Source of the DNA: Candidatus Delongbacteria bacterium
GTDB taxonomy: Bacteria; UBA4055
Assembly: GCA_027858225.1 (NCBI GenBank)
Contig: JAQIDB010000202.1
Location: 1 to 47,422, forward strand
DNA length: 47,422 bases
Direction: 5' to 3'
Of the stretch, positions 2,660-45,371 are shown piece by piece. The stretch's first letter is position 1. The number at the start of each line of letters is the position of its first letter. Below the pieces are notes generated by a model, which saw only the letters and a program-made list of their open reading frames with translations, made no database searches and had not been told where the DNA came from. Position numbers and translations under genes: made by a program.

Positions 2660-3580
2660 TTAATGCGAATTTAGAAAATCAATTACACCTAACGCAGCGA
2701 CACTCCCATCACTAACCGCAGTAGTAACTTGCCTAACTTTCTTCTCAATAACATCACCAGCAGCAAAGACACCTTTAACATTTGTCTTTAAATCCGAATC
2801 TACTAAGATCTCTCCCCTGTTATTGATATCCAAAATATCTTTAAAAACAGATGTTCTTGGAATATAACCAATGAAAATAAAACCACCAGTAACATTCAAA
2901 TCTTGAGTAGAACCATCCTTATTACTTTTGATCCTTACAGAAGTTAAACTTTCATCTCCGATAAACTCCTCAACATCAGATTCTAAAATTATCTTTATTT
3001 TCGGATGATCCTGAGCTTCTCTGATAGCATGCTCATATCCTTGAAAATGATCGAATTGATGAACAATTGTGACACTGCTAGCATACTTAGTTAAGGAAAC
3101 TGCTTCTTCCAATGCGGAATTGCCACCACCGATTACGACGATATCTTTATCTTGGAAGAAATCTCCGTCACAAGTCGCACAATAAGAAATCCCTTTCCCT
3201 TTGAATTTCTTCTCAGAGTCTAAGCCCAATGATCTTGGTTCTCCTCCAGTCGCAATGATCACAGAATCAGCCGAGAAATCATCTTCACCATCCACTTGAA
3301 TAAACTTCTCTTTTCCTGCAATATCTAATTTCGTGATATCACTGCTAGATAAAATTTTACAACCAAATGATTTAGCCTGTTTCTTCATATTGTTAGCTAA
3401 TTCATACCCTGAAATATCTAACACTCCAGGGTAATTAGCTATCTTATGAGTCAAGATCATTTGCCCCCCAGCAGAACCTGAATCAATTATTAAAACAGAT
3501 CTTTTAGCTCTCGCTAAATATATCCCTGCAGTTAAACCTGCAGGACCGGCTCCAATGATTATTGTATCATATTTCTTCAT
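2660..3580 (-). CDS. trxB: Thioredoxin-disulfide reductase
   Basis: The FAD motif is GAGPAG, the redox-active site is CATCDG, and the NADPH motif is GGGNSALEE. The C-terminal motif GVFAAGD is present. Its ATG overlaps the upstream gene's TAA (TAATG). Confidence 0.93.
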   Translation of the reverse strand: MKKYDTIIIGAGPAGLTAGIYLARAKRSVLIIDSGSAGGQMILTHKIANYPGVLDISGYELANNMKKQAKSFGCKILSSSDITKLDIAGKEKFIQVDGEDDFSADSVIIATGGEPRSLGLDSEKKFKGKGISYCATCDGDFFQDKDIVVIGGGNSALEEAVSLTKYASSVTIVHQFDHFQGYEHAIREAQDHPKIKIILESDVEEFIGDESLTSVRIKSNKDGSTQDLNVTGGFIFIGYIPRTSVFKDILDINNRGEILVDSDLKTNVKGVFAAGDVIEKKVRQVTTAVSDGSVAALGVIDFLNSH

Positions 3581-3930
3581 TATTCAGGTGTCCCGAATTT
3601 ATCATTTAAAATAGCTTTTACTTCATCCTTATTTTGAATACTGCTCGTCGCCTTAGCAACTTTACCATTCTTATAGTAAACCACGAAAGGTAAACCTTGA
3701 AAACTTCTGCATTCTGGAAGGTTTCTAATTATAGCAGCTTCAGGGTTATCAAACTCCATATCAAAGAATTTCACATCCTCGTATTTATCTTCCAGATTTT
3801 CCATCACATCATAAACAGGCAAACACATTGGACCCATTCTTCCGCAACATACCATTACATTTTCATTCTCATTAATTGTTTTTTCCAGTGATGACGCTGA
3901 TTCGATGTGATTCAGATTTGTTCCTAACAT
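3580..3930 (-). CDS. Thioredoxin-fold protein with a non-canonical active-site region (CCGRMGPMC instead of WCGPC)
   Basis: It is 116 aa with a Trx-like layout (VMVCCGRMGPMCLPVYDVM...VKFFDMEFD...GLPFVVYYKNGK). It is translationally coupled to trxB. Confidence 0.7.
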   Translation of the reverse strand: MLGTNLNHIESASSLEKTINENENVMVCCGRMGPMCLPVYDVMENLEDKYEDVKFFDMEFDNPEAAIIRNLPECRSFQGLPFVVYYKNGKVAKATSSIQNKDEVKAILNDKFGTPE

Positions 3931-4916: not shown

Positions 4917-6326
4917 TTATAATTTGTACTTCTTAAGTATCTTCTTTAAATTTTGTTTTATTTGAGTAAATTCATTTTCAAAAATAGTTCTTACACTCAA
5001 GAAATATTTTTCATCTGATATATATCCAAATACCGGAGTATCATCAATTATTCTCATTTCTTTTGAGAGTTTAGAAACGCCAATATCACTTTGTTCTATA
5101 GAAATAGCAACTCCTTCTAACTTTTCTGTTGGTAAAGTTCCTGACCCAGCTTGATCCAAAACTTCCTCAACTATGATTTTCCATTTCTCCGGAACGATAG
5201 ATTCGATCTCTTTCTTTAAATCTGTTGCTTTCTTCGTAAGATCATTTCTTTTCGCTGATAGTAACTTCAATGTCAAATGACCGGAATCTATTGGATCTTT
5301 TTCAACGAATATTTTAAGAGTTTCTTCTAAAAGAGCCAGTCTTATTTTATCCGTTCTCATTACACGCATCAAAGGATTCTTTTTCACTTTTTCTATTAGC
5401 TCTTTGCTACCAGCTATTATACCACATTGTGGACCGCCAAGAACTTTATCTCCACTGAAAGAATAAATATCAGCACCATCCTTAATAGCATCTTGAACTG
5501 TCGGTTCATGAGGTAGACCATATTTTGCAAGATCTGAGAATATACCTCCACCAAGATCAAAATAAAACGGGATCTTATGCTTTTTGCCAAGTTCTGAAAG
5601 TTCTTTAACAGTTACTTCAGCCGTAAAACCTTCAATGCGGTAGTTTGAAGTATGAACTTTAACCAATGCTCCAGTCTTACTCGTGATAGCCTCTTCATAA
5701 TCTTCGATACTAGTTTTGTTCGTAGAACCAACCTCAACCATCTTTCCACCTGATTTCTTGATAACATCAGGCATTCTAAAAGAACCTCCGATCTCTACTA
5801 GTTCCCCACGTGAAACTATTACTTCTTTTCTCTGAGCTAAAGAATTAATACATATCATAACTGCTGCTGCATTATTATTTACTACGGTCGCTGCTTCGGC
5901 ACCAGTGATAATACTTATAAGATCGCTGATTTTATCTTCTCTCCGACCTCTTTTCCCGGTTTCAACATTTACTTCTAATGTTGAATAACCTTGAAGAATA
6001 CTTTGAAGATTATCTAATGCTCTCTCAGCCAATGGAGCTCTACCTAATCCAGTATTCAGTACGATTCCAGTGCCATTTACTGCAGAACGAGTAAAAGGTT
6101 TGAACCTTTTATTTATCGAGTCTAACATCTTAGATAAAATATTTTTATCAATACTTTTCTTTTTACCTTTTAAAATATCTTTGCGTAATTTATCCAATTC
6201 AGATTGTATAAGTTTTACCAATATTTCATGTTTATATTTTTTTCTTAATGATTCCAGCTCTTTACTCTCTAGAACTTTATCCACTTTAGGTATGTTTTTT
6301 AATATTTCTTGCATTATTCCTGCCAA
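4917..6326 (-). CDS. selA: L-seryl-tRNA(Sec) selenium transferase
   Basis: The PLP-lysine region FSGDKVLGGPQCG matches the SelA signature, and the length is SelA-like (about 465 aa). The track start is TTG at 6326. An ATG at 6314 preceded by AGGA is an alternative start. Confidence 0.9.
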   Translation of the reverse strand: MAGIMQEILKNIPKVDKVLESKELESLRKKYKHEILVKLIQSELDKLRKDILKGKKKSIDKNILSKMLDSINKRFKPFTRSAVNGTGIVLNTGLGRAPLAERALDNLQSILQGYSTLEVNVETGKRGRREDKISDLISIITGAEAATVVNNNAAAVMICINSLAQRKEVIVSRGELVEIGGSFRMPDVIKKSGGKMVEVGSTNKTSIEDYEEAITSKTGALVKVHTSNYRIEGFTAEVTVKELSELGKKHKIPFYFDLGGGIFSDLAKYGLPHEPTVQDAIKDGADIYSFSGDKVLGGPQCGIIAGSKELIEKVKKNPLMRVMRTDKIRLALLEETLKIFVEKDPIDSGHLTLKLLSAKRNDLTKKATDLKKEIESIVPEKWKIIVEEVLDQAGSGTLPTEKLEGVAISIEQSDIGVSKLSKEMRIIDDTPVFGYISDEKYFLSVRTIFENEFTQIKQNLKKILKKYKL

Positions 6327-6328
6327 AT

Positions 6329-7288
6329 TTAATCAAAATTAATAATATTTTTTACTCTAATTGAGTTCATAATATCTCTATGTTTTTTTGTGTCGTTAGA
6401 AAGATTTTTTAATATTTCCGCAATTATTGGATCATCCGATTCGAACAGTTTAAAAAGATCTTTCTCAATTATTGAATTTTCTAAAACAAAAGCAAATGAA
6501 TAAGCTGTATTTAAAACATATTCATCTGTGAATACTTTTGCCATTTCATCTTTGACATTTTGCAATGATATTTTCACATCTTCAATTGAGCTGTCTCTGT
6601 GATCAAATTTGATCTTACCTTCATTTATCTTTATAATTATCTGCTTGATCCAAGCTTCATGTTTCTTTTCCTCTTCTACCAGAAACAACCACACACCCTC
6701 TTTAGGAAATTTTTTTCTATAATATGAATATAATTGACTTATCATCCTTTCATGTTCAGCATGATAACCTAGTAAGATTAATCCTTTATCAATCTCTTTT
6801 CTTTCTTCTTCTTTTGATTTATGAATTTCAAGTAGTTTATCAAGTTCTATATCTAAAGTAACTTTATGTGACTCAGTATCAGCTTTAAGATCATCTAGTA
6901 CTTTTTGAATCCCTTTAAGATCACTCCAAAACGAGTCAAACATTTTTCTTTCAATAATAGAATTTTCTAAAGATTTAGCAAAATCAATCACTTCTGAAAG
7001 TTTAGCACCTTTCTTTTCAAACTTTAATCTAAAATCGACAATAGACTCTATTGATTTCGATATATTATCTATTGAAAAATACCTTTTATCAAATTGAACA
7101 GATCCTTCAACAACGTTATCCAGTATAGATCTTATCCATTCTGCATGCTTGAATTCTTCATTTGAAAGGAATTCCCATATCTCCATTTCATGAAAGTAAA
7201 CTTTTAAAACAGAGTATAAGTTACCTATTGCTTCTTCGTGAAAAGCCAATAATTCAATAATTTCGAAATTTTCTTCTTTATTGCTCAT
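6329..7288 (-). CDS. Tandem double ferritin-like/rubrerythrin-like four-helix-bundle protein (two domain copies)
   Basis: Each half shows E-x6-Y (helix 1), EExKH (helix 2), ENSIIE (helix 3) and DTxxH (helix 4). It is paralogous to the next two genes. Confidence 0.6.
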   Translation of the reverse strand: MSNKEENFEIIELLAFHEEAIGNLYSVLKVYFHEMEIWEFLSNEEFKHAEWIRSILDNVVEGSVQFDKRYFSIDNISKSIESIVDFRLKFEKKGAKLSEVIDFAKSLENSIIERKMFDSFWSDLKGIQKVLDDLKADTESHKVTLDIELDKLLEIHKSKEEERKEIDKGLILLGYHAEHERMISQLYSYYRKKFPKEGVWLFLVEEEKKHEAWIKQIIIKINEGKIKFDHRDSSIEDVKISLQNVKDEMAKVFTDEYVLNTAYSFAFVLENSIIEKDLFKLFESDDPIIAEILKNLSNDTKKHRDIMNSIRVKNIINFD

Positions 7289-7316: not shown

Positions 7317-7904
7317 TTATTTATTATCTAAATTTCTGTCTAAATTTATTATTTCATCACGCGTGAAGGGTACTTTATTTTCTACAATATCATTTTCTTT
7401 TTTTGTACTATTTCCACTTATTTGACCACGATTCAATCTATTTAGAAAATTATTTTTAGCTAAAATCAAAGATTCTCTATGCTTTTCAGTATCTGCTACG
7501 ATCTTACCTAAAATATCTTCTACAAACGGAGCATCAGTTTCTAGAGACTTAAAAAATTCACGTTCTATCATAGATTCCTCTATCTCGAATCCTGTTTTGT
7601 ATGCGTGCAGGAGATCTACTTCAACAGTATCTATTTTATCAATCTCATTTTTCATTCTTTCTATAGACAATTTAATACTTTCGCATCTCATCGGATCATC
7701 TTTTAAACAAATTGTATCATCTGAAACTTTCCCGATAAGTTGTTGGATCAAGGAGGCGTGTTTTTTTTCAGCTAACTCTAAATCCTTCCAAATTTTCTCT
7801 TCCGGGAATTTTATGGAATAAGTTTTATATAATTTACTCAGTGTACTCTCATGCTCAATTTGGTGAGCTATCAAATTAAATACTTCTTTCATAATTCCTG
7901 CCAT
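7317..7904 (-). CDS. Ferritin-like four-helix-bundle protein (single domain plus polar tail)
   Basis: The motifs are IEHES, AEKKH, EIEESMIE and DTEKH. An alternative start is the ATG at 7892. Confidence 0.6.
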   Translation of the reverse strand: MAGIMKEVFNLIAHQIEHESTLSKLYKTYSIKFPEEKIWKDLELAEKKHASLIQQLIGKVSDDTICLKDDPMRCESIKLSIERMKNEIDKIDTVEVDLLHAYKTGFEIEESMIEREFFKSLETDAPFVEDILGKIVADTEKHRESLILAKNNFLNRLNRGQISGNSTKKENDIVENKVPFTRDEIINLDRNLDNK

Positions 7905-7931: not shown

Positions 7932-8579
7932 CTAATTTTGTTCTTTATTTATCCTTTTAACAATACTCTCGTAGGAATTGTATTCTTTCTCTTTCTTAAA
8001 TTTGTCAAGAGCTGATTCTAAAACATTTTGATGTGATTTTGTATCGGTTTTAAGTTCATCTAAAACTTTCTGGATACTAAGGTCATCACTGCTGAAATAG
8101 TTTAAAAAATTCTTTTCTAGCATTGATTTTTCCACTTTGATTGCAAATTCAATAGCCTGCTCAAGATTTCTACCACCTTTTTCAACAACAGAGATTTCTT
8201 CTTTAACCTGATTTATTGCAATATTAATTGTCCTGACAGAAAAATGCATGTCACTAAATTGTATAGATCCATCCTCAACGTTTTCAAGGATTGATAGAAC
8301 AAGACAGTTATGCTTTTTCTCTTCCTCATTTAAAAAATTCCAAAGTTTGAATGTTGGAAATTCTTTGGAATAAGCAAAGTACATATCTGCTAAAACTTGC
8401 TCATTTTGAGCTAAAAGATTAACAATTTTAATTATTTCTTCAATATCAGTCACAATATCACCCAATCTATTTTTGTATGCATATTTAAGTATTTCTATAA
8501 TATAGTTAATATAACGTATAAAATGAAACTTAATTATAACTAATTTATCGGTTTTGATACAAAATATGAGTTTATTCAT
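7932..8579 (-). CDS. Ferritin-like four-helix-bundle protein (single domain)
   Basis: The motifs are AQNEQ, EEEKKH, KVEKSMLE and DTKSH. The first 42 codons look non-homologous to the paralogs. A GTG at 8453 preceded by GGTGA would give a paralog-like N-terminus (MTDIEEIIKIV...). Confidence 0.55.
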   Translation of the reverse strand: MNKLIFCIKTDKLVIIKFHFIRYINYIIEILKYAYKNRLGDIVTDIEEIIKIVNLLAQNEQVLADMYFAYSKEFPTFKLWNFLNEEEKKHNCLVLSILENVEDGSIQFSDMHFSVRTINIAINQVKEEISVVEKGGRNLEQAIEFAIKVEKSMLEKNFLNYFSSDDLSIQKVLDELKTDTKSHQNVLESALDKFKKEKEYNSYESIVKRINKEQN

Positions 8580-8619
8580 ATTTGTTGTAGACTTTTTTAT
8601 ATATAATTGTTACTATGTA

Positions 8620-10188
8620 ATGAAACTAAACAGGATGAAATGTCTTATGAAAAATATTCTATTTTTAACTTTGTTTTTGGTATCTTTAGTTTTTTCAGGT
8701 GAAGGTGACGATTTAATCAATGTTGGTGATATTTCCTTTGAGGATGTAAATTGGAATGATTATGGTGATATTTTTTATTCCAGAAGGAACATTCAGGATA
8801 TGACATCTAAAGGTCAGGCTGTTGTTATCCATTTTTACACTGCTTGCTACAGTTGATCAGGTATACAAACGATGCCGGAGGCATCTACTTTCGAAAAAGC
8901 ATATAAGAATATTGATTTAAATACTGACATTTACCTGGTTGGAGCATCTACAAATTTGAACTTGATACCTGATCTAAAATATACTCAGGAAATTAATTTC
9001 ATCAGTTATAATATGGCTACAGAAATAGAATTAGGTCATTATCAAAAATACTTCGAATTTGAAACAGATTATTACTCAAACTTTTTATTCATTGGGAAAA
9101 ACAATAAAATTATTGGCAAGTTAGGTAACGCAGCAACTCAGGAAGAAATGGAAAATATGTTCAACCTTACCTTGTCTTCTTTTGAGGGAATTTATCAAAG
9201 AGAGTCAATTAATAATATAATTCTTCAAGATGATGTAACTCTTATTGATTTGAATGATTATTTCTATGTCGAAGATGGAAAAAATATTAATTTTGAGATA
9301 ATATCTAATTCAAACCAATTAGCTGTGTCAGGATCTTCAAACAATTGGGAATTAGAACTGTTGAAGGGAGATTATACGGGAAATTCTAAATTAACTTTAC
9401 AGATCAAAGTTCCGGATAAAGAAATTGCATATACTATGGATTTTTATGTCTTTAATTCAAATGGTGAAAATGAAGACTTTGAATATGACAAATTAACAGA
9501 AAGTACCATTTCTTGGGAAAATGATAGAGAGCCATGGCTTCTAACTAATGAAACATCCTTCACAGGAGATCAATCTATCAGGTCAGGATATATTGTTGAC
9601 CATTTATCATCAAGCTTATCACTTACAATGAATGTAGCTGAACGAGATTATATTAGTTTTGCATATAAAACATCATCTGAGCAAGACAATGATTTTTTAG
9701 GATTCTATATCAATGATGTCTTAATGAATTACCAAGATCTTCCTTTATGGTCCGGATTAAACGATTGGAGATCTGTAACATATAATTTGAGACCTGGAAT
9801 ACAAACTTTTACCTGGACATATTCCAAAAATGATTTTGGTAGTATCGGTGATGATTGTGTGTGGATGGATGCTTTAGTTCTTCCAGCCAGTGGGATAGAA
9901 ATGGATATTGAGAACAACGAATTACCGTCATCTATTGCTTTGTCGAATTACCCAAATCCATTCAACCCTACAACAACAATCAATTTCTCACTTAACAAGT
10001 CTTCAATCATGGAATTGAATATCTACGATATGACCGGTAGTTTAGTTGACAAATTACATAATGGATTTACAAATGCTGGAAAGCATTCTTATGAATTCAA
10101 TGGGAACAATCTATCCAGTGGGATTTACTACGCTGTTTTAAAAACTGAAGAACAACAGAAAATTTCAAAAATGATCTTAGTAAAATAA
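8620..10188 (+). CDS. Exported thioredoxin-fold (TlpA/redoxin-like) selenoprotein candidate with C-x-x-U motif, a beta-rich middle region and a T9SS type-A C-terminal sorting domain
   Basis: Track ORFs 8554-8856 and 8872-10188 share one frame. They are separated only by TGA (8854-8856) plus 5 sense codons. Read-through gives GQAVVIHFYTACYS-U-SGIQTMPE. The signal peptide is MK..MKNILFLTLFLVSLVFS. The C-terminus is NYPNPFNPTTTINFSL...GIYYAVLK...MILVK. The start is uncertain (8620, 8635 or 8647). Confidence 0.7.
8867..8892 (+). promoter_or_regulatory. SECIS-like hairpin downstream of UGA 8854-8856
   Basis: The core is GAUGCC-GGA-GGCAUC at 8871-8885. The stem starts 15 nt after the UGA and the loop G residues lie about 21 nt after it. 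AAA/UUU could extend the lower stem. Confidence 0.5.
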
Positions 10189-12817: not shown

Positions 12818-15800
12818 CTAGTTCTTTGCTACTATGTAATAGAAAAGTTTAGCCTGATCAGCAGCTACAGTATACTGATTTGTTGCTACATTTGTTACAA
12901 ATGTAAATGTTCCGTAAGGATCATCTGATGAATAAACATCATAGCTTGTCGCATCTGCTGCAACATCCCAATCTACCACAATATCCGCACCTGAAATACT
13001 AGTACTTACATTAGCTGGTATTCCTGGAGGAGGTGTTACACCACCAACTGTGAAAGTAGCCACAACAACTTCTGAAAATTCGTCTGGATCATCTGAAATT
13101 ATTGTAATATCTGCTGTATATTCACCTACAGCAAGTCCTGTTGCATCATAACCAACTGTGATAGCATTCGTGTCTGAAGCATTTACCACACCATTAATTG
13201 TTACACCACCGTCAAGTGTTAACCAAGAATAAGCAGAAGGACCTGAAATAAATACATTATCAAGTGTCTGCCAACCAGTTGAACCTTGAGATCTAGTAAC
13301 ATTAGCTATAAATCTTACTTGAACTGCAGTATTAGGAATTGCGATATGCTGACTTCCGCTATATGTTGCAGTTCCGTTATAAACTTGAGTCCATACTGAA
13401 CCATCATACCATTCAGCCTGAAAATAACCACCAGATCTAATTAGATTCGCGCAATCAAAATCAAGGAATAAATCACTTGTAGAAGTTCCATCAAATACTG
13501 TAGAAGTTAAAGTAGAAATACCTTGAGTGGTTGTTTTGGCCTCACCAGAAACAACTGACCATGAACCAGAATTCGTATAAACAAGTCCAGATTCAAAATC
13601 ATTTTCTTCAACTACCATATCTCCCTTCATACCAGGCCATCCTGTGTACTCGAATGATGCGCTATATGTAAGATTTGAAGAACCAGTGTTTTCAATATTA
13701 AGTACACTTGAAGTTGTTTCATCCGGAGCACATGTTCCAGTATTTGTTGCTGCTACATTGATATCAGGTAAAGCACCCGTACCAGTTACAGAAATATACT
13801 CAGGATCGTGACTTGGATCTGAAGATGTAATAGTTATATTTCCACTATAAGTTGTTTGAGCAGTTGGAGAGAATACTAGATCAAATGTCTTAGAACTGTT
13901 TGTAGGAACAGCATAACTTAATATATTCTTTGCAGCATTTGCAACTGAATAACCAGTGATTGTAGTGATGTCACCAATAATTGTTTCGGTATTGTGTGTA
14001 TTTGTAATTGTAAACTGCATTGTAGAACTTCCGTCAACAGTTACATTTCCGAAATCTAAAGATGAATGATCTAAAACAAAAGTACCACCAAGATCACCAG
14101 TTACCATTAGAACTGATTGTTCAGTTTCTAAGTTAAATCCAGTAACTGTAACAGTTACATCAGATGCAATTGCGAAACCGTGATCGATTGAAACATTACC
14201 ACTTGAATTTGTAAGTGCAGTATAATTTGTTCCGTTTTGATAAAGAGTTACTCTTGCACCTTCTACAGGGCTTCCACCAGCAGTAATTGTTGTTGAATAA
14301 TTACTTGGAAGTAAAGTAGTTGTTGAATTGTCGATCAATGTTGGCTGATCAGTTCTAACCTGAACAGTAACATCACCGAAGATAGTCCATGCTTCCTGAG
14401 TATCTCTTGTTGATGCATCTGTTGGATTATCTAAAAGCATCTGGTTTGATGCATTTACTGCAATTGATCCGTAATGAGTTCTTTGTTCAGTGATAGTTAC
14501 TCCATCACCAGGGTTTGAAGAATAGTCATATCCACCTACAAGTATATCATTAAAATAATCCTGACCTACCATTGGAGGATACCAAGGCTGACTGATAGTT
14601 GAGAACCAACCTACTACTGCTCCACCAGTTGGATGTCTTAACCAAGTCTCTGCAAAACAATCACTTGCTGCATAATATATATTTCCAACTAAACAAGCTA
14701 CTGATTGAATAAATGGAAGCCTATTACTATTGTTCATTGTTGCGATGTCGGCATTGTAGATATAACCACCATCTATAGACTGCCAACAATCATATGATCC
14801 ATGACCGGTATAGTTGATAATAGTTGTACCAGTGTTTACATATTCAACGATTTTAGTTTTTGTATATGAATCTAAACTTTGATAAACTGTGTTTGCTGAT
14901 GTATAAGTAAATGGTAAAAGTCTTCCATTTATGATATTTTCTGAGTGCTCATAATCAATCTCACCATCGTCTCCGGGACCTTCATCACCGGCAATTCCCA
15001 TTGCTGTATCATACCATGAACCACCAATTTCAGGATTCTTCTCATAGTTGATAGCTTTATTTATCTGAATTTCAACATCTGTTTCATCTGCTGCTGAAAA
15101 ACGTCCTACGATAATGTCCATGTACTGATCAGTTCCAACTACACAACCAAGCATTGGATCTTGAGATCCGTAAGTTGATGTTGAACTATTCAAATACTCA
15201 GATTTTAATGCTGCCCAATCACCTACCAATTGAACATAAAGTATGTTGTTATTAGCATTATAAGCAGTTGTGATGTCACCACTAACTTTTAGATCAGTTC
15301 CATAAGATACTTCTAAAGTATTTACAGTATAACCCATTTCTTCTTTCCATTGGATATATGGCTCTAAAGCTGTTAGTCCACCATAAGAAGAAGTATAAAC
15401 AATAAGGATTTCACCAAGTTCTCCAACATCCATTACTTTAGTTTCATTATAGTTAATGAACATGCCTTTATACATACCGTTCATCTCTGAAACAACAGTT
15501 GAAGATTTTGTGATCAATGGATTCACAGGTTTACTATCATTGTCTACAAGAGATACAGCGATATTTTTATAAACTCTTAAAGTTTGTGTTGCTGCATTAT
15601 ACTGAAAAGGATGAACAATAACACTTGTTCCTCTTACATCTCTCAAGATAAAAGGATCTGTTCCTTCTACAATATTTGCAGGATACCATGAATCTGTAAT
15701 AGATTCTTTAGCTATTTCATAAGGTATTTTACTTATGTCCATACTTCTTGACATTATACCTCTTGAAGGCAACAATGGGTAATCAAGCTTGATGTCAACA

Positions 15801-16090
15801 TATTTGCCTGCATCAAAATCCAAAGTTACATTTTTGTCACTTGATAATTGAACTGATTTACTAAATCTTGGTAATTCAGCATAACCTAATTCATTAGTTC
15901 TTACACCACCTTCAAAATCTATTCTGGTGAATGTTTGACCATCTGCTTTTACTTCACTTAGACTGTATGAATCAACGTTAATGTCAAGCTTCATCTCTGA
16001 ACTTGAAACCTTCGAGTAATTCACGTCATAGCTGTTCGCTAATAGTGATAAAACCATCACTAAGAACAGTAAGACTAAACTTTTTCTCAT
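12818..16090 (-). CDS. Gingipain-like cysteine peptidase (family C25) with Ig-like/adhesin repeats and a C-terminal Fn3-like module
   Basis: It has a signal peptide. The catalytic His context is NYTGHGSYDCW and the catalytic Cys context is FIQSVACLVGN. The length is 1090 aa. After a PPPG linker it ends in ...SYDVYSSDDPYGTFTFV...FYYIVAKN. Confidence 0.8.
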   Translation of the reverse strand: MRKSLVLLFLVMVLSLLANSYDVNYSKVSSSEMKLDINVDSYSLSEVKADGQTFTRIDFEGGVRTNELGYAELPRFSKSVQLSSDKNVTLDFDAGKYVDIKLDYPLLPSRGIMSRSMDISKIPYEIAKESITDSWYPANIVEGTDPFILRDVRGTSVIVHPFQYNAATQTLRVYKNIAVSLVDNDSKPVNPLITKSSTVVSEMNGMYKGMFINYNETKVMDVGELGEILIVYTSSYGGLTALEPYIQWKEEMGYTVNTLEVSYGTDLKVSGDITTAYNANNNILYVQLVGDWAALKSEYLNSSTSTYGSQDPMLGCVVGTDQYMDIIVGRFSAADETDVEIQINKAINYEKNPEIGGSWYDTAMGIAGDEGPGDDGEIDYEHSENIINGRLLPFTYTSANTVYQSLDSYTKTKIVEYVNTGTTIINYTGHGSYDCWQSIDGGYIYNADIATMNNSNRLPFIQSVACLVGNIYYAASDCFAETWLRHPTGGAVVGWFSTISQPWYPPMVGQDYFNDILVGGYDYSSNPGDGVTITEQRTHYGSIAVNASNQMLLDNPTDASTRDTQEAWTIFGDVTVQVRTDQPTLIDNSTTTLLPSNYSTTITAGGSPVEGARVTLYQNGTNYTALTNSSGNVSIDHGFAIASDVTVTVTGFNLETEQSVLMVTGDLGGTFVLDHSSLDFGNVTVDGSSTMQFTITNTHNTETIIGDITTITGYSVANAAKNILSYAVPTNSSKTFDLVFSPTAQTTYSGNITITSSDPSHDPEYISVTGTGALPDINVAATNTGTCAPDETTSSVLNIENTGSSNLTYSASFEYTGWPGMKGDMVVEENDFESGLVYTNSGSWSVVSGEAKTTTQGISTLTSTVFDGTSTSDLFLDFDCANLIRSGGYFQAEWYDGSVWTQVYNGTATYSGSQHIAIPNTAVQVRFIANVTRSQGSTGWQTLDNVFISGPSAYSWLTLDGGVTINGVVNASDTNAITVGYDATGLAVGEYTADITIISDDPDEFSEVVVATFTVGGVTPPPGIPANVSTSISGADIVVDWDVAADATSYDVYSSDDPYGTFTFVTNVATNQYTVAADQAKLFYYIVAKN

Positions 16091-44843: not shown

Positions 44844-45371
44844 TTACGATTCTAATTCGACGCCTAAACCATTGGCAATTCGATTTACAAAATTAAAATA
44901 TGCTACGATCGTACACATGTCGTGAATTGCAAGATCATCAAAACCGGCATCTTTCAACTGCTCAATGATCTCAACCGTAACCTCCGAAGATCTCACAGTT
45001 AATATTAACGCATAATCCAGCATCAACTTATCTGCCTCACTGAATAATAATGAATTGCTGTGATCTACAAGCTCAAAAATAAATTTATCTGCTTTCTCTT
45101 CATCCATTTCCTTAAGTAATTCTCTACGAAGACCCGCTTCGTGATGAGTCACTCAATATAAGCATTCATTTACTTGAGAAACTACCACTGCCATCATTTC
45201 TCTCTGTATCCTAGATAACGGACTTCGTTTCCTCATCAACTCGATATACATTTCATAATGCTGCTTCATTACCTTTGAATGAATACCGTGTATCTGAATA
45301 ATATTATCTTCATCTTTGATCCTGTTAGCTTCAGGTATTTCGTCCTGAGGTAAATATTTTATAAATGCCAT
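44844..45371 (-). CDS. AhpD/carboxymuconolactone-decarboxylase-like (peroxidase-related) selenoprotein candidate, C-L-Y-U motif
   Basis: Track ORFs 45153-45371 and 44844-45152 are contiguous in one frame, separated only by TGA (45155-45153). Read-through gives VVVSQVNECLY-U-VTHHEAGLR. This matches the CMD-family N-x-C-x-Y-C-x-x-x-H redox motif with the second Cys replaced by UGA. Confidence 0.75.
45122..45148 (-). promoter_or_regulatory. SECIS-like hairpin downstream of UGA 45155-45153
   Basis: The minus strand reads CUC-auc-ACGAAG-CGGGU-CUUCGU-a-GAG. The 6-bp upper stem starts 11 nt after the UGA and has a G-rich loop. Confidence 0.5.

What the first reader, a model, noticed from the sequence alone, without database searches (positions are those of the whole stretch)
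8620..10188. Exported, T9SS-sorted thioredoxin-fold protein with an in-frame UGA in a C-x-x-U motif
- Two track ORFs (8554-8856 and 8872-10188) share one reading frame. They are separated only by TGA at 8854-8856 and five sense codons.
- Reading through gives ...KGQAVVIHFYTACYS-U-SGIQTMPEASTFEKAYKN... This has the layout of a TlpA/redoxin active site: a beta-strand, then F-x-x-x-C-x-x-C, then a helix. The UGA sits exactly at the resolving or attacking Cys position.
- A GAUGCC-GGA-GGCAUC hairpin starts 15 nt downstream.
- selA lies 2.5 kb away.
- The same polypeptide has an N-terminal signal peptide and a C-terminal NYPNPFNPTTTINFSL-type T9SS sorting domain, so the Sec residue would be exported and surface-displayed. 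I know of no described T9SS-cargo selenoprotein. Standard gene callers would split or truncate this gene.
Basis: partly seen in the sequence, partly recalled or inferred. Interest (0 to 1): 0.8.

Follow-up and report, generated by a model that had tools for sequence, protein, structure and literature searches.

The report
Secreted selenoprotein family hidden by UGA
One gene, wrongly split in two by gene callers, encodes a secreted, probably surface-displayed protein whose key residue is almost certainly selenocysteine; it is the first member found of an undescribed selenoprotein family in the candidate phylum Delongbacteria.

Summary

- **One gene.** ORFs 8554-8856 and 8872-10188 form a single gene, most likely 8647-10188. 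It has one in-frame TGA at 8854-8856.
- **Conserved TGA.** All 14 homologous genes I could read (30-82% aa identity) keep a TGA at this column. Of 33 family proteins on hand, 31 are called from just after it, one fragment ends just before it, and one was called with Trp at the TGA. None has Cys there.
- **SECIS-like hairpin.** A hairpin nnnGCC-GGA-GGCnnn lies 20 or 23 nt after the UGA in every copy. Its three variable pairs covary, with 0 of 500 shuffles matching. Rare CCG and GAG codons are frozen in it.
- **Sec use in this genome.** The window holds selA and a second selenoprotein gene of a known family (AhpD-like). TGA occurs inside no other long ORF.
- **Export.** The protein has a signal peptide, a roughly 170-aa head, an Ig-like domain, a jelly-roll domain and a T9SS type A sorting domain.
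- **Head fold.** No library matches the head. A sister family with W-U-x-x-C reaches the Pfam AhpC-TSA cut-off, and it aligns weakly to this head.
- **Motif.** Only Sec is invariant; the partner Cys sits at -3, -2, -1 or +4.

The chemical function is unknown. I found no description of a T9SS-sorted selenoprotein.

The parts
8647..10188 (+). Complete selenoprotein gene: 513 codons plus stop, with one in-frame UGA. ATG 8620 is an alternative start.
   Evidence: Read-through translation. Ortholog N-termini begin MKK(I/L)... and align with MKNILFL at 8647. Substitutions upstream of the TGA fall mainly on third codon positions, for example 5/4/32 at positions 1/2/3.
8647..8703 (+). Predicted Sec-type signal peptide (MKNILFLTLFLVSLVFSGE...). 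The cleavage site is approximate.
   Evidence: Read from the sequence: a basic N-end, a 13-residue hydrophobic core and a small-residue c-region. Present in all homologs. No predictor was run.
8710..9216 (+). Head domain of about 170 aa with a thioredoxin-like predicted topology. It carries the Sec.
   Evidence: Alignments A3 and A6. AlphaFold2 model of homolog P0014 gives b1-[C,U]-a1-b2-a2-b-a-b3-b4-a3 with pLDDT 63-94. hhalign to the sister family gives E 0.0026. No library hit.
8845..8847 (+). Partner Cys codon (TGC), three residues before Sec. Its position varies in other clades.
8854..8856 (+). In-frame UGA, read as selenocysteine. This is residue 70 counted from ATG 8647.
   Evidence: Kept in 14 of 14 homologous genes. 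It is the only internal TGA in the window's long ORFs besides the AhpD-like gene.
8871..8885 (+). SECIS-like hairpin: stem 8871-8876 paired with 8880-8885, loop GGA at 8877-8879. It overlaps the codons for M-P-E-A-S.
   Evidence: Covariation: 87.9% of cells paired, 17 cells changed on both sides against 6.5 in shuffles, 0 of 500 shuffles reach this. RNAalifold finds the same 6-bp helix, with 3 compensatory pairs. The rare CCG and GAG codons are invariant.
9217..9945 (+). Ig-like domain followed by a MAM/CBM-like jelly-roll domain. This scaffold is shared with other T9SS cargo.
   Evidence: AlphaFold2 model. Foldseek hits are to CBM, MAM and Ig domains. The jelly-roll is repeated many times in giant proteins, and P0174 carries a cyclophilin head on the same scaffold.
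9949..10188 (+). T9SS type A C-terminal sorting domain, plus the stop codon.
   Evidence: PF18962 E 8.8e-12. TIGR04183 40.6 bits against a cut-off of 23.
4917..6326 (-). selA, L-seryl-tRNA(Sec) selenium transferase. It marks Sec use in this genome.
   Evidence: Pfam SelA E 5.9e-138. TIGR00474 548 bits against a cut-off of 268.
44844..45371 (-). Second selenoprotein gene on the contig: AhpD/peroxidase-related family, motif NECLY-U-VTHH, TGA at 45153-45155. It gives independent evidence that this organism decodes UGA as Sec.
   Evidence: TIGR01926 108 bits against a cut-off of 81.8. A hairpin ACGAAG-CGGGU-CUUCGU starts 10 nt after the UGA (loop 16 nt after it), -13.5 kcal/mol.

Best explanation
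Positions 8647-10188 are one gene for a selenoprotein.

**How the UGA is read.** During translation the UGA at 8854-8856 is recoded to selenocysteine. A bacterial-type SECIS hairpin sits inside the coding sequence, with a GC-clamped stem and a GGA apical loop 20 nt after the UGA. Presumably SelB with Sec-tRNA(Sec) binds it.

**How the protein travels.** The N-terminal signal peptide takes the precursor through the Sec translocon. The C-terminal type A sorting domain then hands it to the type IX secretion system. The roughly 170-aa head, held on an Ig-like plus jelly-roll stalk, therefore ends up outside the cell or on its surface.

**What the head is.** It is a divergent thioredoxin-fold domain. 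The invariant Sec follows strand b1, and a nearby Cys can close a selenenylsulfide. That Cys is at -3 here and at -2, -1 or +4 in other clades.

**Shown:**
- the gene is a single unit;
- the TGA is conserved;
- the hairpin covaries;
- selA and a second selenoprotein gene are in the window;
- the sorting domain is present.

**Inferred:**
- actual Sec insertion;
- export;
- the thioredoxin fold (moderate support);
- the chemistry. My best guess, at about 0.4, is extracytoplasmic selenol/thiol redox catalysis. Because the Sec is fixed and the Cys moves, it may resemble a peroxidatic/resolving pair more than a fixed CxxC.
For: - **TGA conservation.**
  - The TGA sits at the same column in 14 of 14 genes.
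  - Both flanks are conserved as protein.
  - Substitutions upstream fall on third codon positions.
- **Database calls.**
  - 31 family proteins all start just after the Sec column.
  - One fragment ends just before it.
  - One was called with W at the TGA.
  - None has Cys there.
- **Hairpin.**
  - It is present in 14 of 14 copies, at 20 or 23 nt.
  - It covaries, with 0 of 500 shuffles matching; slid controls give 30-59% paired against 87.9%.
  - RNAalifold recovers it.
  - CCG makes up 12% of Pro codons and GAG 25% of Glu codons in the window, yet both are invariant here.
  - The motif GCCGGAGGC occurs once in the window. In the family loci it occurs only after the TGA.
- **Genetic code.** No other long ORF has an internal TGA.
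- **Sec use.**
  - selA is present.
  - An AhpD-like C-x-x-U gene is in the window.
  - A SelW/Rdx-like C-G-D-U gene sits next to the ortholog in L163, L164 and L170.
- **Export.**
  - The sorting domain is present.
  - The downstream ORF has no signal peptide and no conserved start codon.
- **Fold.**
  - The secondary-structure order fits.
  - The sister family in L173 carries W-U-P-G-C and passes AhpC-TSA at 27.0 bits against 26.
  - hhalign between the two heads gives E 0.0026 over 118 columns.
  - tblastn gives a continuous alignment from head strand b3 to the end, E 7e-39.
Against: - selB, selC and selD are not in the window and could not be looked for. No tRNA was found in the window.
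- No Rfam SECIS family matches.
- The hairpin alone is not more stable than shuffled sequence, and a 3-nt loop is small.
- The head hits no Pfam, NCBIfam or PDB sequence.
- Apart from the RNA-constrained PEA, no Pro is invariant, so the usual cis-Pro is missing.
- Foldseek could not be aimed at the head alone.
- hhalign comparisons with single Trx, AhpC and GPx4 sequences are not significant.
- The missing Cys forms remove the usual Sec/Cys-pair argument.
- There is no expression or protein evidence.
Confidence: 0.85

Rival explanations
1. The protein is a real, exported selenoprotein, but the Sec-Cys pair is a high-affinity ligand or carrier site rather than a redox catalyst. It might bind soft metals or metalloids such as Hg, As or Cu. 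It might instead carry sulfur or selenium as a persulfide or perselenide at the cell surface.
For: - The partner Cys moves between -3, -2, -1 and +4. This is unlike the fixed CxxC of catalytic thioredoxin-fold enzymes.
- One clade has a C-U dipeptide. Haft (bioRxiv 10.1101/2022.07.06.499078) links that motif to metal handling, including in proteins exposed outside the cytoplasm.
- No electron donor for a surface protein is evident.
- The usual cis-Pro is absent.
Against: - The sister family has a canonical W-U-P-G-C redox motif on the same scaffold.
- No metal-related genes lie nearby. The neighbours are an M20 peptidase, an MFS transporter and a C25 peptidase.
- A variable resolving Cys is also typical of peroxidases.
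Confidence: 0.3
2. The UGA is decoded, but not as Sec. Either the organism uses a code in which UGA is Trp or Gly (tables 4 or 25), or there is local near-cognate read-through.
For: - One database entry (P0014) was called with Trp at this codon.
- TGA is a rare stop codon here, ending 1 of 27 long ORFs.
Against: - No other long ORF of the 47-kb window has an internal TGA except the AhpD-like gene. There the TGA sits exactly at the second Cys position of a known Sec/Cys family motif.
- selA is present.
- A covarying hairpin at a fixed distance is what Sec decoding needs, and a code change does not.
Confidence: 0.04
3. These are two separate genes, or a decaying pseudogene. The TGA would be a true stop, giving a small secreted 69-aa peptide and an independently translated 438-aa T9SS protein.
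For: Every public annotation splits the locus this way.
Against: - The split is kept in 14 of 14 genes, in the same frame and with only one stop, while synonymous sites are heavily diverged.
- The downstream piece has no conserved start codon and no signal peptide, although T9SS cargo needs one.
- A predicted strand ends 5-6 residues before the stop and a helix begins 7 residues after it, so the stop falls inside one predicted domain.
- Tandem paralogs show the same pattern.
Confidence: 0.03
4. The hairpin has a different job, such as an intrinsic terminator for the minus strand or a pause or attenuator element. On this view its position after the TGA is a coincidence.
For: The terminator scan flags it on the minus strand.
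Against: - No minus-strand gene reads into it. The nearest one ends at 10177, 1.3 kb away, and would have to run antisense through this gene.
- The spacing to the TGA is fixed at 20 or 23 nt in all homologs.
- The loop GGA and the GC clamp are invariant although they lie in coding sequence.
Confidence: 0.02

Closest known systems
Sec-containing thioredoxin-fold oxidoreductases of bacteria (thioredoxin-like, DsbA-like, TlpA/AhpC-TSA-like and peroxiredoxin selenoproteins catalogued by Zhang and Gladyshev; PMC1088965, PMC2398784)
   Same: - In-frame UGA in a Cys-containing redox-type motif directly after a b-strand.
- A SECIS hairpin just downstream in the coding sequence, with G in a small apical loop.
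- A predicted b-a-b...b-b-a topology.
   Different: - This head matches none of their models.
- No Cys-form homologs were found, whereas those families are mostly Cys forms (PMC1088965; PMC12013277).
- The partner Cys position is not fixed.
- The head is fused to Ig-like, jelly-roll and T9SS sorting domains.
Sister family found here in Delongbacteria locus L173. It has three tandem genes, motifs G-U-N-T-C, W-U-P-G-C and G-U-I-S-C, and is itself undescribed as far as I could find.
   Same: - Same phylum, and the same MAG as ortholog L164.
- Same signal peptide, the same YNVGD start of the mature protein, and the same Ig, jelly-roll and sorting-domain scaffold.
- In-frame TGA after strand b1, followed by a GC-GGN-GC hairpin.
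   Different: - It has a canonical U-x-x-C and a cis-Pro-like VP motif, and reaches Pfam AhpC-TSA.
- The window's family has lost both signatures and carries two extra residues before U.
Extracytoplasmic selenoproteins of the SAO system (SaoB, SaoC) with C-U motifs (Haft 2022, bioRxiv 10.1101/2022.07.06.499078)
   Same: Predicted selenoproteins with signal peptides, exposed outside the cytoplasm. One clade of this family also has a C-U dipeptide.
   Different: - The folds and genome context are unrelated: an ABC transporter system, mostly in Firmicutes.
- There is no T9SS.
- No sequence similarity was tested beyond the library scans.
SelW-like/Rdx selenoproteins (PF10262)
   Same: A C-x-x-U motif. 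A member with MNIKITYCGD-U-DYYP lies directly beside the ortholog in L163, L164 and L170.
   Different: They are small cytoplasmic proteins of about 75 aa. The window lacks that neighbour, and there is no homology to this head.
Ordinary T9SS type A cargo, such as C25, M6 and M36 peptidases and P0174 (a cyclophilin head on the same scaffold)
   Same: A signal peptide, a functional head, b-sandwich spacer domains and a TIGR04183 sorting domain.
   Different: No T9SS cargo with selenocysteine turned up in the literature searches, in two 2026 selenoproteome papers, or as a head-domain match in NCBIfam.

Membership tests
Bacterial selenoprotein (UGA recoded through SelA, SelB, tRNA-Sec and a SECIS) | An in-frame UGA conserved among homologs, with coding sequence conserved on both sides | tested here: met
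   14 of 14 genes keep it. Upstream substitutions fall on third codon positions. 31 database members are truncated exactly there.
Bacterial selenoprotein (UGA recoded through SelA, SelB, tRNA-Sec and a SECIS) | A stem-loop shortly downstream of the UGA with a small apical loop containing G (PMC1088965). The bSECISearch spacing of roughly 16-37 nt is quoted from memory. | tested here: met
   A 6-bp stem with loop GGA lies 20 or 23 nt after the UGA. It covaries, with 0 of 500 shuffles matching. No Rfam SECIS model matched.
Bacterial selenoprotein (UGA recoded through SelA, SelB, tRNA-Sec and a SECIS) | Sec machinery in the same genome: selA | tested here: met
   TIGR00474 equivalog, 548 bits.
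Bacterial selenoprotein (UGA recoded through SelA, SelB, tRNA-Sec and a SECIS) | Sec machinery in the same genome: selB, selC and selD | not testable with these tools
Indirect support: a second selenoprotein gene of a known family lies on the same contig.
Bacterial selenoprotein (UGA recoded through SelA, SelB, tRNA-Sec and a SECIS) | Homologs with Cys aligned to the UGA (the usual supporting criterion) | tested here: not met
   None was found among the 150 best hits of an exhaustive search or among 33 family proteins. Word-index searches with the head were uninformative. Stand-alone head homologs that score below the listed hits cannot be excluded.
Bacterial selenoprotein (UGA recoded through SelA, SelB, tRNA-Sec and a SECIS) | Selenium demonstrated in the polypeptide | not testable with these tools
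   This needs 75Se labelling or mass spectrometry.
Thioredoxin-fold / TlpA-AhpC-TSA-redoxin superfamily | A significant match to a family model (Pfam, NCBIfam) or to a solved structure by sequence | tested here: not met
   There were no hits for this head. The best was AhpC-TSA at E 0.18 in 1 of 13 members. Sister family member B2 does reach AhpC-TSA at 27.0 bits against 26.
Thioredoxin-fold / TlpA-AhpC-TSA-redoxin superfamily | b1-a1-b2-a2-b3-b4-a3 topology with the active site between b1 and a1 | tested here: inconclusive
   The secondary-structure order of the AlphaFold2 model of homolog P0014 fits, with head pLDDT 63-94.
Thioredoxin-fold / TlpA-AhpC-TSA-redoxin superfamily | A C-x-x-C-type dyad with fixed spacing, and a cis-Pro before b3 | tested here: not met
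   Only U is invariant; the Cys is at -3, -2, -1 or +4. No Pro is invariant outside PEA.
Thioredoxin-fold / TlpA-AhpC-TSA-redoxin superfamily | Homology to a bona fide member | tested here: inconclusive
   hhalign to the sister-family head gives E 0.0026 but a probability of only 12%, over 118 columns. A continuous tblastn alignment starts at head strand b3. Comparisons with single Trx, AhpC and GPx4 sequences are not significant.
T9SS type A cargo | A C-terminal type A sorting domain | tested here: met
   PF18962 45.6 bits against 27. TIGR04183 40.6 bits against 23.
T9SS type A cargo | An N-terminal Sec-type signal peptide | tested here: met
   Judged by inspection only: MKNILFLTLFLVSLVFSG, conserved in homologs. 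No predictor was available.
T9SS type A cargo | T9SS machinery in the genome | tested here: inconclusive
   The window has a C25-family protein of 1090 aa with only weak PorU similarity (56 bits against a cut-off of 420). Core genes were not seen in the window.
Glutathione peroxidase / peroxiredoxin | A conserved catalytic set: GPx needs U/C, Q, W and N; Prx needs T-x-x-C plus R | tested here: not met
   None of these is invariant in the alignments. hhalign is not significant.

The most novel reading that the evidence does not exclude
Delongbacteria export a whole set of selenoproteins through the type IX secretion system and display selenocysteine outside the cell. The set comprises this Sec-only family plus a canonical W-U-x-x-C sister family, often in tandem copies. 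These would be the first surface or extracellular selenoenzymes of bacteria delivered by T9SS. They would carry out selenol chemistry, such as disulfide or polysulfide reduction, peroxide removal or soft-metal capture, in the anoxic environment rather than in the cytoplasm. The family has no Cys form, so homology-based selenoprotein finders cannot detect it.
Probability: 0.45. Interest if true: 0.75.

Novelty: new variant of a known kind. Interest (0 to 1): 0.62.

Why it matters
- **Annotation.** Every public copy of this gene is split or truncated at the UGA. Dozens of Delongbacteria proteins labelled 'T9SS type A sorting domain-containing protein' therefore lack their signal peptide and their active site.
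- **Selenium biology.** Bacterial selenoproteins are overwhelmingly cytoplasmic or periplasmic redox enzymes that have Cys-form relatives. This family appears to exist only in the Sec form, to be sent to the cell surface by T9SS, and to keep the Sec fixed while the partner Cys moves. That widens both where and how selenium is thought to be used.
- **Search methods.** It shows a blind spot of methods that rely on Sec/Cys pairs, a limit stated for deep-Sep (PMC12013277).
- **SECIS definition.** The invariant GCC-GGA-GGC hairpin, the GGC loop of the sister family and the CGGGU loop of the AhpD-like gene together give a first working picture of the SECIS that Delongbacteria SelB may recognise.

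Tried and rejected
**Searches that gave little or nothing**
- Genome and metagenome locus scans with the family alignment were swamped by the generic T9SS tail pattern YPNPFNPxT.
- Rfam at E up to 10 around the site gave nothing relevant.
- Pfam, NCBIfam and PDB sequence searches of the head gave no hits.
- Word-index protein searches with the head returned nothing, or only the upstream fragment P0269. They also failed to return known members, so I treat them as uninformative rather than negative.

**Structure attempts**
- I therefore modelled P0014, which was called with Trp at the UGA. A deeper alignment improved it.
- Foldseek against the PDB with both models returned only CBM, MAM and Ig matches in the 50 rows shown. 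The head could not be queried alone, and model coordinates are not exposed.

**Reference profiles for the thioredoxin fold**
- Building Trx or Prx profiles from the fetched loci failed, with only 2-3 hits.

**Readings rejected**
- An alternative genetic code.
- A pseudogene or two separate genes.
- A minus-strand terminator.
- GPx or Prx membership, because the catalytic residues are not conserved.
- selA adjacency as a family feature, because it was seen only in the one close relative with upstream sequence (L164) and is absent from distant loci.
Full report
**1. The observation**

The sequence is as described. ORF 8554-8856 and ORF 8872-10188 are in one frame. They are separated by TGA (8854-8856) and five sense codons. 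Read-through gives ...AVVIHFYTACYS-[UGA]-SGIQTMPEASTF...

The hairpin GAUGCC-GGA-GGCAUC lies at 8871-8885. selA is at 4917-6326 on the minus strand (Pfam SelA E 5.9e-138; TIGR00474 548 bits). The C-terminus is a T9SS type A sorting domain (PF18962; TIGR04183 above its cut-off).

Taken alone, the hairpin is no more stable than shuffled sequence (z = -0.52). No Rfam family matches. The case therefore had to be made by comparison with homologs.

**2. Not an alternative code, not a pseudogene**

I re-read the window with only TAA and TAG as stops. No gene-sized ORF then contains an internal TGA, except this one and one AhpD-like gene. TGA is therefore not a general sense codon here. It is also a rare stop, ending 1 of 27 long ORFs.

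The closest database proteins are annotated 'T9SS type A sorting domain-containing protein [Candidatus Delongbacteria bacterium]'. They are 434-440 aa long and all begin at the Met just after the TGA. One homolog, P0014 (516 aa, 41% identity), spans both halves. Its contig has TGA where the protein record shows Trp.

I read the DNA of 14 homologous genes in 11 contigs, at 30-82% identity. Each has a single in-frame TGA at the same alignment column. Each also has a signal peptide upstream and conserved protein sequence on both sides.

Among close orthologs, the 69 codons upstream of the TGA differ mainly at third positions (for example 5/4/32 at positions 1/2/3). Up to 42 of 69 third positions have changed, yet the TGA never has.

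The residue that gene callers use as the 'start' of the downstream ORF is M, L, R, K, S or P in different homologs. The downstream piece therefore has no conserved start codon, and it has no signal peptide.

Of the family members:
- 31 begin at profile position 52 or later, where Sec is at position 49;
- one fragment ends at position 48;
- only P0014, with its W, spans the site;
- none has Cys there.

The exhaustive 1.8-billion-protein search gave the same picture among its 150 best hits.

**3. The SECIS-like element**

In all 14 genes the motif GCC-GGA-GGC follows the UGA. Its loop starts 20 nt after the UGA, or 23 nt in the clade with one extra codon.

The three base pairs below the invariant GC clamp change in a compensatory way (GC, AU, UA and UG; AU, CG and UG; UA, UG, AU, CG and GU):
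- 87.9% of cells are paired, against 68.6% in shuffles;
- 17 cells changed on both sides, against 6.5 in shuffles;
- 0 of 500 shuffles reach the observed values;
- sliding the partner columns drops pairing to 30-59%.

RNAalifold, run on UGA to +48 with no structure supplied, predicts exactly this 6-bp helix and nothing else. Three of its pairs are compensatory.

The loop and clamp are encoded by P-E-A using CCG and GAG. These make up only 12% of Pro codons and 25% of Glu codons in this AT-rich window, yet they are invariant here. GCCGGAGGC occurs once in the window. In the family loci it occurs only behind the TGA.

These properties match the published description of bacterial SECIS elements: a stem-loop just downstream of the UGA with a small apical loop containing G (PMC1088965). 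The numerical bSECISearch limits I quote are from memory.

A terminator-like call on the minus strand is rejected. No gene reads into the hairpin on that strand, and its spacing to the UGA is fixed.

**4. Sec use in this organism**

- selA is present.
- At 44844-45371 on the minus strand the window carries an AhpD/peroxidase-related gene.
  - It passes TIGR01926 (108 bits against 81.8).
  - Its in-frame TGA sits in NECLY-U-VTHH, the C-x-x-C position of a family known to have Sec forms.
  - A hairpin ACGAAG-CGGGU-CUUCGU follows it.
- In orthologous loci L163, L164 and L170, the gene next door is a SelW/Rdx-like protein with MNIKITYCGD-U-DYYP.
- selB, selC and selD are not in the window, and no tRNA was found there. 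I could not look elsewhere in the genome.

**5. Architecture**

Orthologs place the start at ATG 8647 (MKNILFLTLFLVSLVFSGEGDD...), a typical signal peptide. The parts that follow are:
- a head of about 170 aa;
- an Ig-like domain;
- a MAM/CBM-like jelly-roll;
- the sorting domain.

The jelly-roll is a widespread module, repeated many times in giant proteins. P0174 carries a cyclophilin head on the same scaffold. The scaffold is therefore a generic display stalk, and the head is the functional part.

**6. Is the head a thioredoxin fold?**

Direct tests failed. There was no Pfam, NCBIfam or PDB sequence hit. hhalign against single Trx, AhpC and GPx4 sequences was not significant, although the elements were in register. 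Foldseek hits were dominated by the b-sandwich domains.

Three lines of indirect evidence are positive:
- **Predicted topology.** With a 33-sequence alignment, the AlphaFold2 model of P0014 reaches pLDDT 82 overall and 63-94 in the head. Its element order is b1(64-70)-[C75,U76]-a1(84-95)-b2-a2-(b,a)-b3-b4-a3, which is the thioredoxin-fold order.
- **A canonical sister family.**
  - The MAG that holds ortholog L164 also has three tandem genes on another contig (L173), built on the same scaffold.
  - Each has an in-frame TGA in FFGQDG-U-NTC, FFGQDW-U-PGC or FWGGAG-U-ISC.
  - Each also has a cis-Pro-like GYVPLF motif and a GC-GGC-GC hairpin.
  - With U replaced by C, the W-U-P-G-C member reaches the Pfam AhpC-TSA cut-off (27.0 bits against 26, E 4.8e-6). 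It also touches five other thioredoxin-like models.
- **Link between the two heads.**
  - The two head profiles align over 118 columns at E 0.0026, although the hhalign probability is only 12%.
  - tblastn of the sister protein against the window gives one continuous alignment from head strand b3 to the end (E 7e-39).

I rate the fold as likely but not shown.

The family differs from textbook members. No cis-Pro is conserved, and only the Sec is invariant. The Cys is at -3 in the window clade, at -2 in L165, at -1 in L001, L002a and L166a, and at +4 in L172 and relatives that begin 'MC[TD]xPEA'.

**7. Mechanism**

Shown:
- one gene;
- a conserved UGA with a covarying hairpin;
- Sec-pathway and selenoprotein genes on the contig;
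- a signal peptide and a sorting domain.

Inferred:
- SelB-dependent Sec insertion;
- export through the Sec translocon and then T9SS;
- a surface or extracellular location;
- a selenenylsulfide-forming Sec/Cys pair.

The chemistry is open. A fixed nucleophile with a mobile partner looks more like a peroxidatic/resolving pair, or a ligand site, than like a CxxC oxidoreductase. The C-U clade recalls the metal-linked C-U motifs discussed by Haft.

The neighbours conserved across clades are an M20 peptidase on the opposite strand and an MFS transporter. They are not co-transcribed with this gene and give no clear clue to function.

**8. Novelty**

- Full-text searches found no paper that connects selenoproteins with type IX secretion, or selenocysteine with Delongbacteria.
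- A 2026 review and the 2026 BSepDB paper do not mention secreted or T9SS selenoproteins.
- NCBIfam 20.0, which holds many selenoprotein models, has none for this head.
- Current predictors state that they depend on Cys-containing homologs (PMC12013277). This family appears to lack them.
- The recoding mechanism itself is standard. Exported bacterial selenoproteins have been proposed before (SAO system).

I therefore class this as a new variant of a known kind.

**9. Caveats**

- All evidence is computational.
- The Sec machinery is only partly visible.
- The taxonomic assignment rests on the source names of four homologs.
- The absence of Cys forms is limited by the 150-row listing and by an unreliable word-index search.
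- The fold claim rests on a model of a homolog and on a weak profile match.

Noticed in passing
window 44844-45371 (-), TGA at 45153-45155: A second split selenoprotein gene of the AhpD/peroxidase-related family (TIGR01926), with motif NECLY-U-VTHH. A hairpin ACGAAG-CGGGU-CUUCGU starts 10 nt after the UGA (loop 16 nt after it). ORF lists show only the 102-aa C-terminal piece at 44844-45152.
   Followed up: partly
L173:2300-6955 (contig JAFGVM010000098.1, the same MAG as L164): Three tandem T9SS-sorted genes, each split by an in-frame TGA. The motifs are U-N-T-C, W-U-P-G-C and U-I-S-C, each followed by a GC-GGC-GC hairpin. This is a canonical thioredoxin-like sister family on the same Ig, jelly-roll and sorting-domain scaffold. 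It is absent from the window.
   Followed up: partly
L164:7357-7533 (-), L163:2581-2754 (-), L170:2219-2392 (-): A SelW/Rdx-like gene (PF10262) lies directly downstream of the ortholog. It is also truncated in annotation at an in-frame TGA (MNIKITYCGD-U-DYYP). The window has no such gene; here the M20 peptidase overlaps the 3' end of the Sec gene.
   Followed up: partly
L002:603-3814; L166:5706-8809: Two paralogs of this family lie in tandem, one with a C-U motif and one with a C-x-x-U motif. The different Cys placements therefore coexist in one genome.
   Followed up: partly
P0174 (508 aa): The same Ig, jelly-roll and T9SS tail scaffold carries a cyclophilin-type peptidyl-prolyl isomerase head in place of the Sec head. 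The scaffold is thus a reusable display module.
   Followed up: no
window 6329-7288 (-), 7317-7904 (-), 7932-8579 (-): Three ORFs of 319, 195 and 215 aa lie between selA and the Sec gene. The 319-aa ORF is immediately upstream of selA, and L164 has a 319-aa ORF in the same position. None has a Pfam or NCBIfam match. A role in selenium metabolism is possible but untested.
   Followed up: no
window 2660-3930 (-): Thioredoxin reductase (TIGR01292, 346 bits) sits next to a 116-aa weakly thioredoxin-like protein with an unusual VCCGRMGPMC motif. They are on the same strand as prmC and selA. L164 has ORFs of the same sizes in the same order.
   Followed up: no
window 12818-16090 (-): A 1090-aa C25-family peptidase with a propeptide domain and weak similarity to the T9SS sortase PorU (56 bits against a cut-off of 420). 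A similar gene lies near the family locus in L166.
   Followed up: no
window, whole: TGA is almost unused as a stop codon. Of 27 long ORFs, 21 end in TAA, 5 in TAG and 1 in TGA. The GC content is 33%.
   Followed up: partly
window 8885-8871 (-): The SECIS hairpin is flagged as terminator-like on the minus strand by the simple scan. I judged this to be a by-product of the palindromic stem followed by T-rich sequence.
   Followed up: yes
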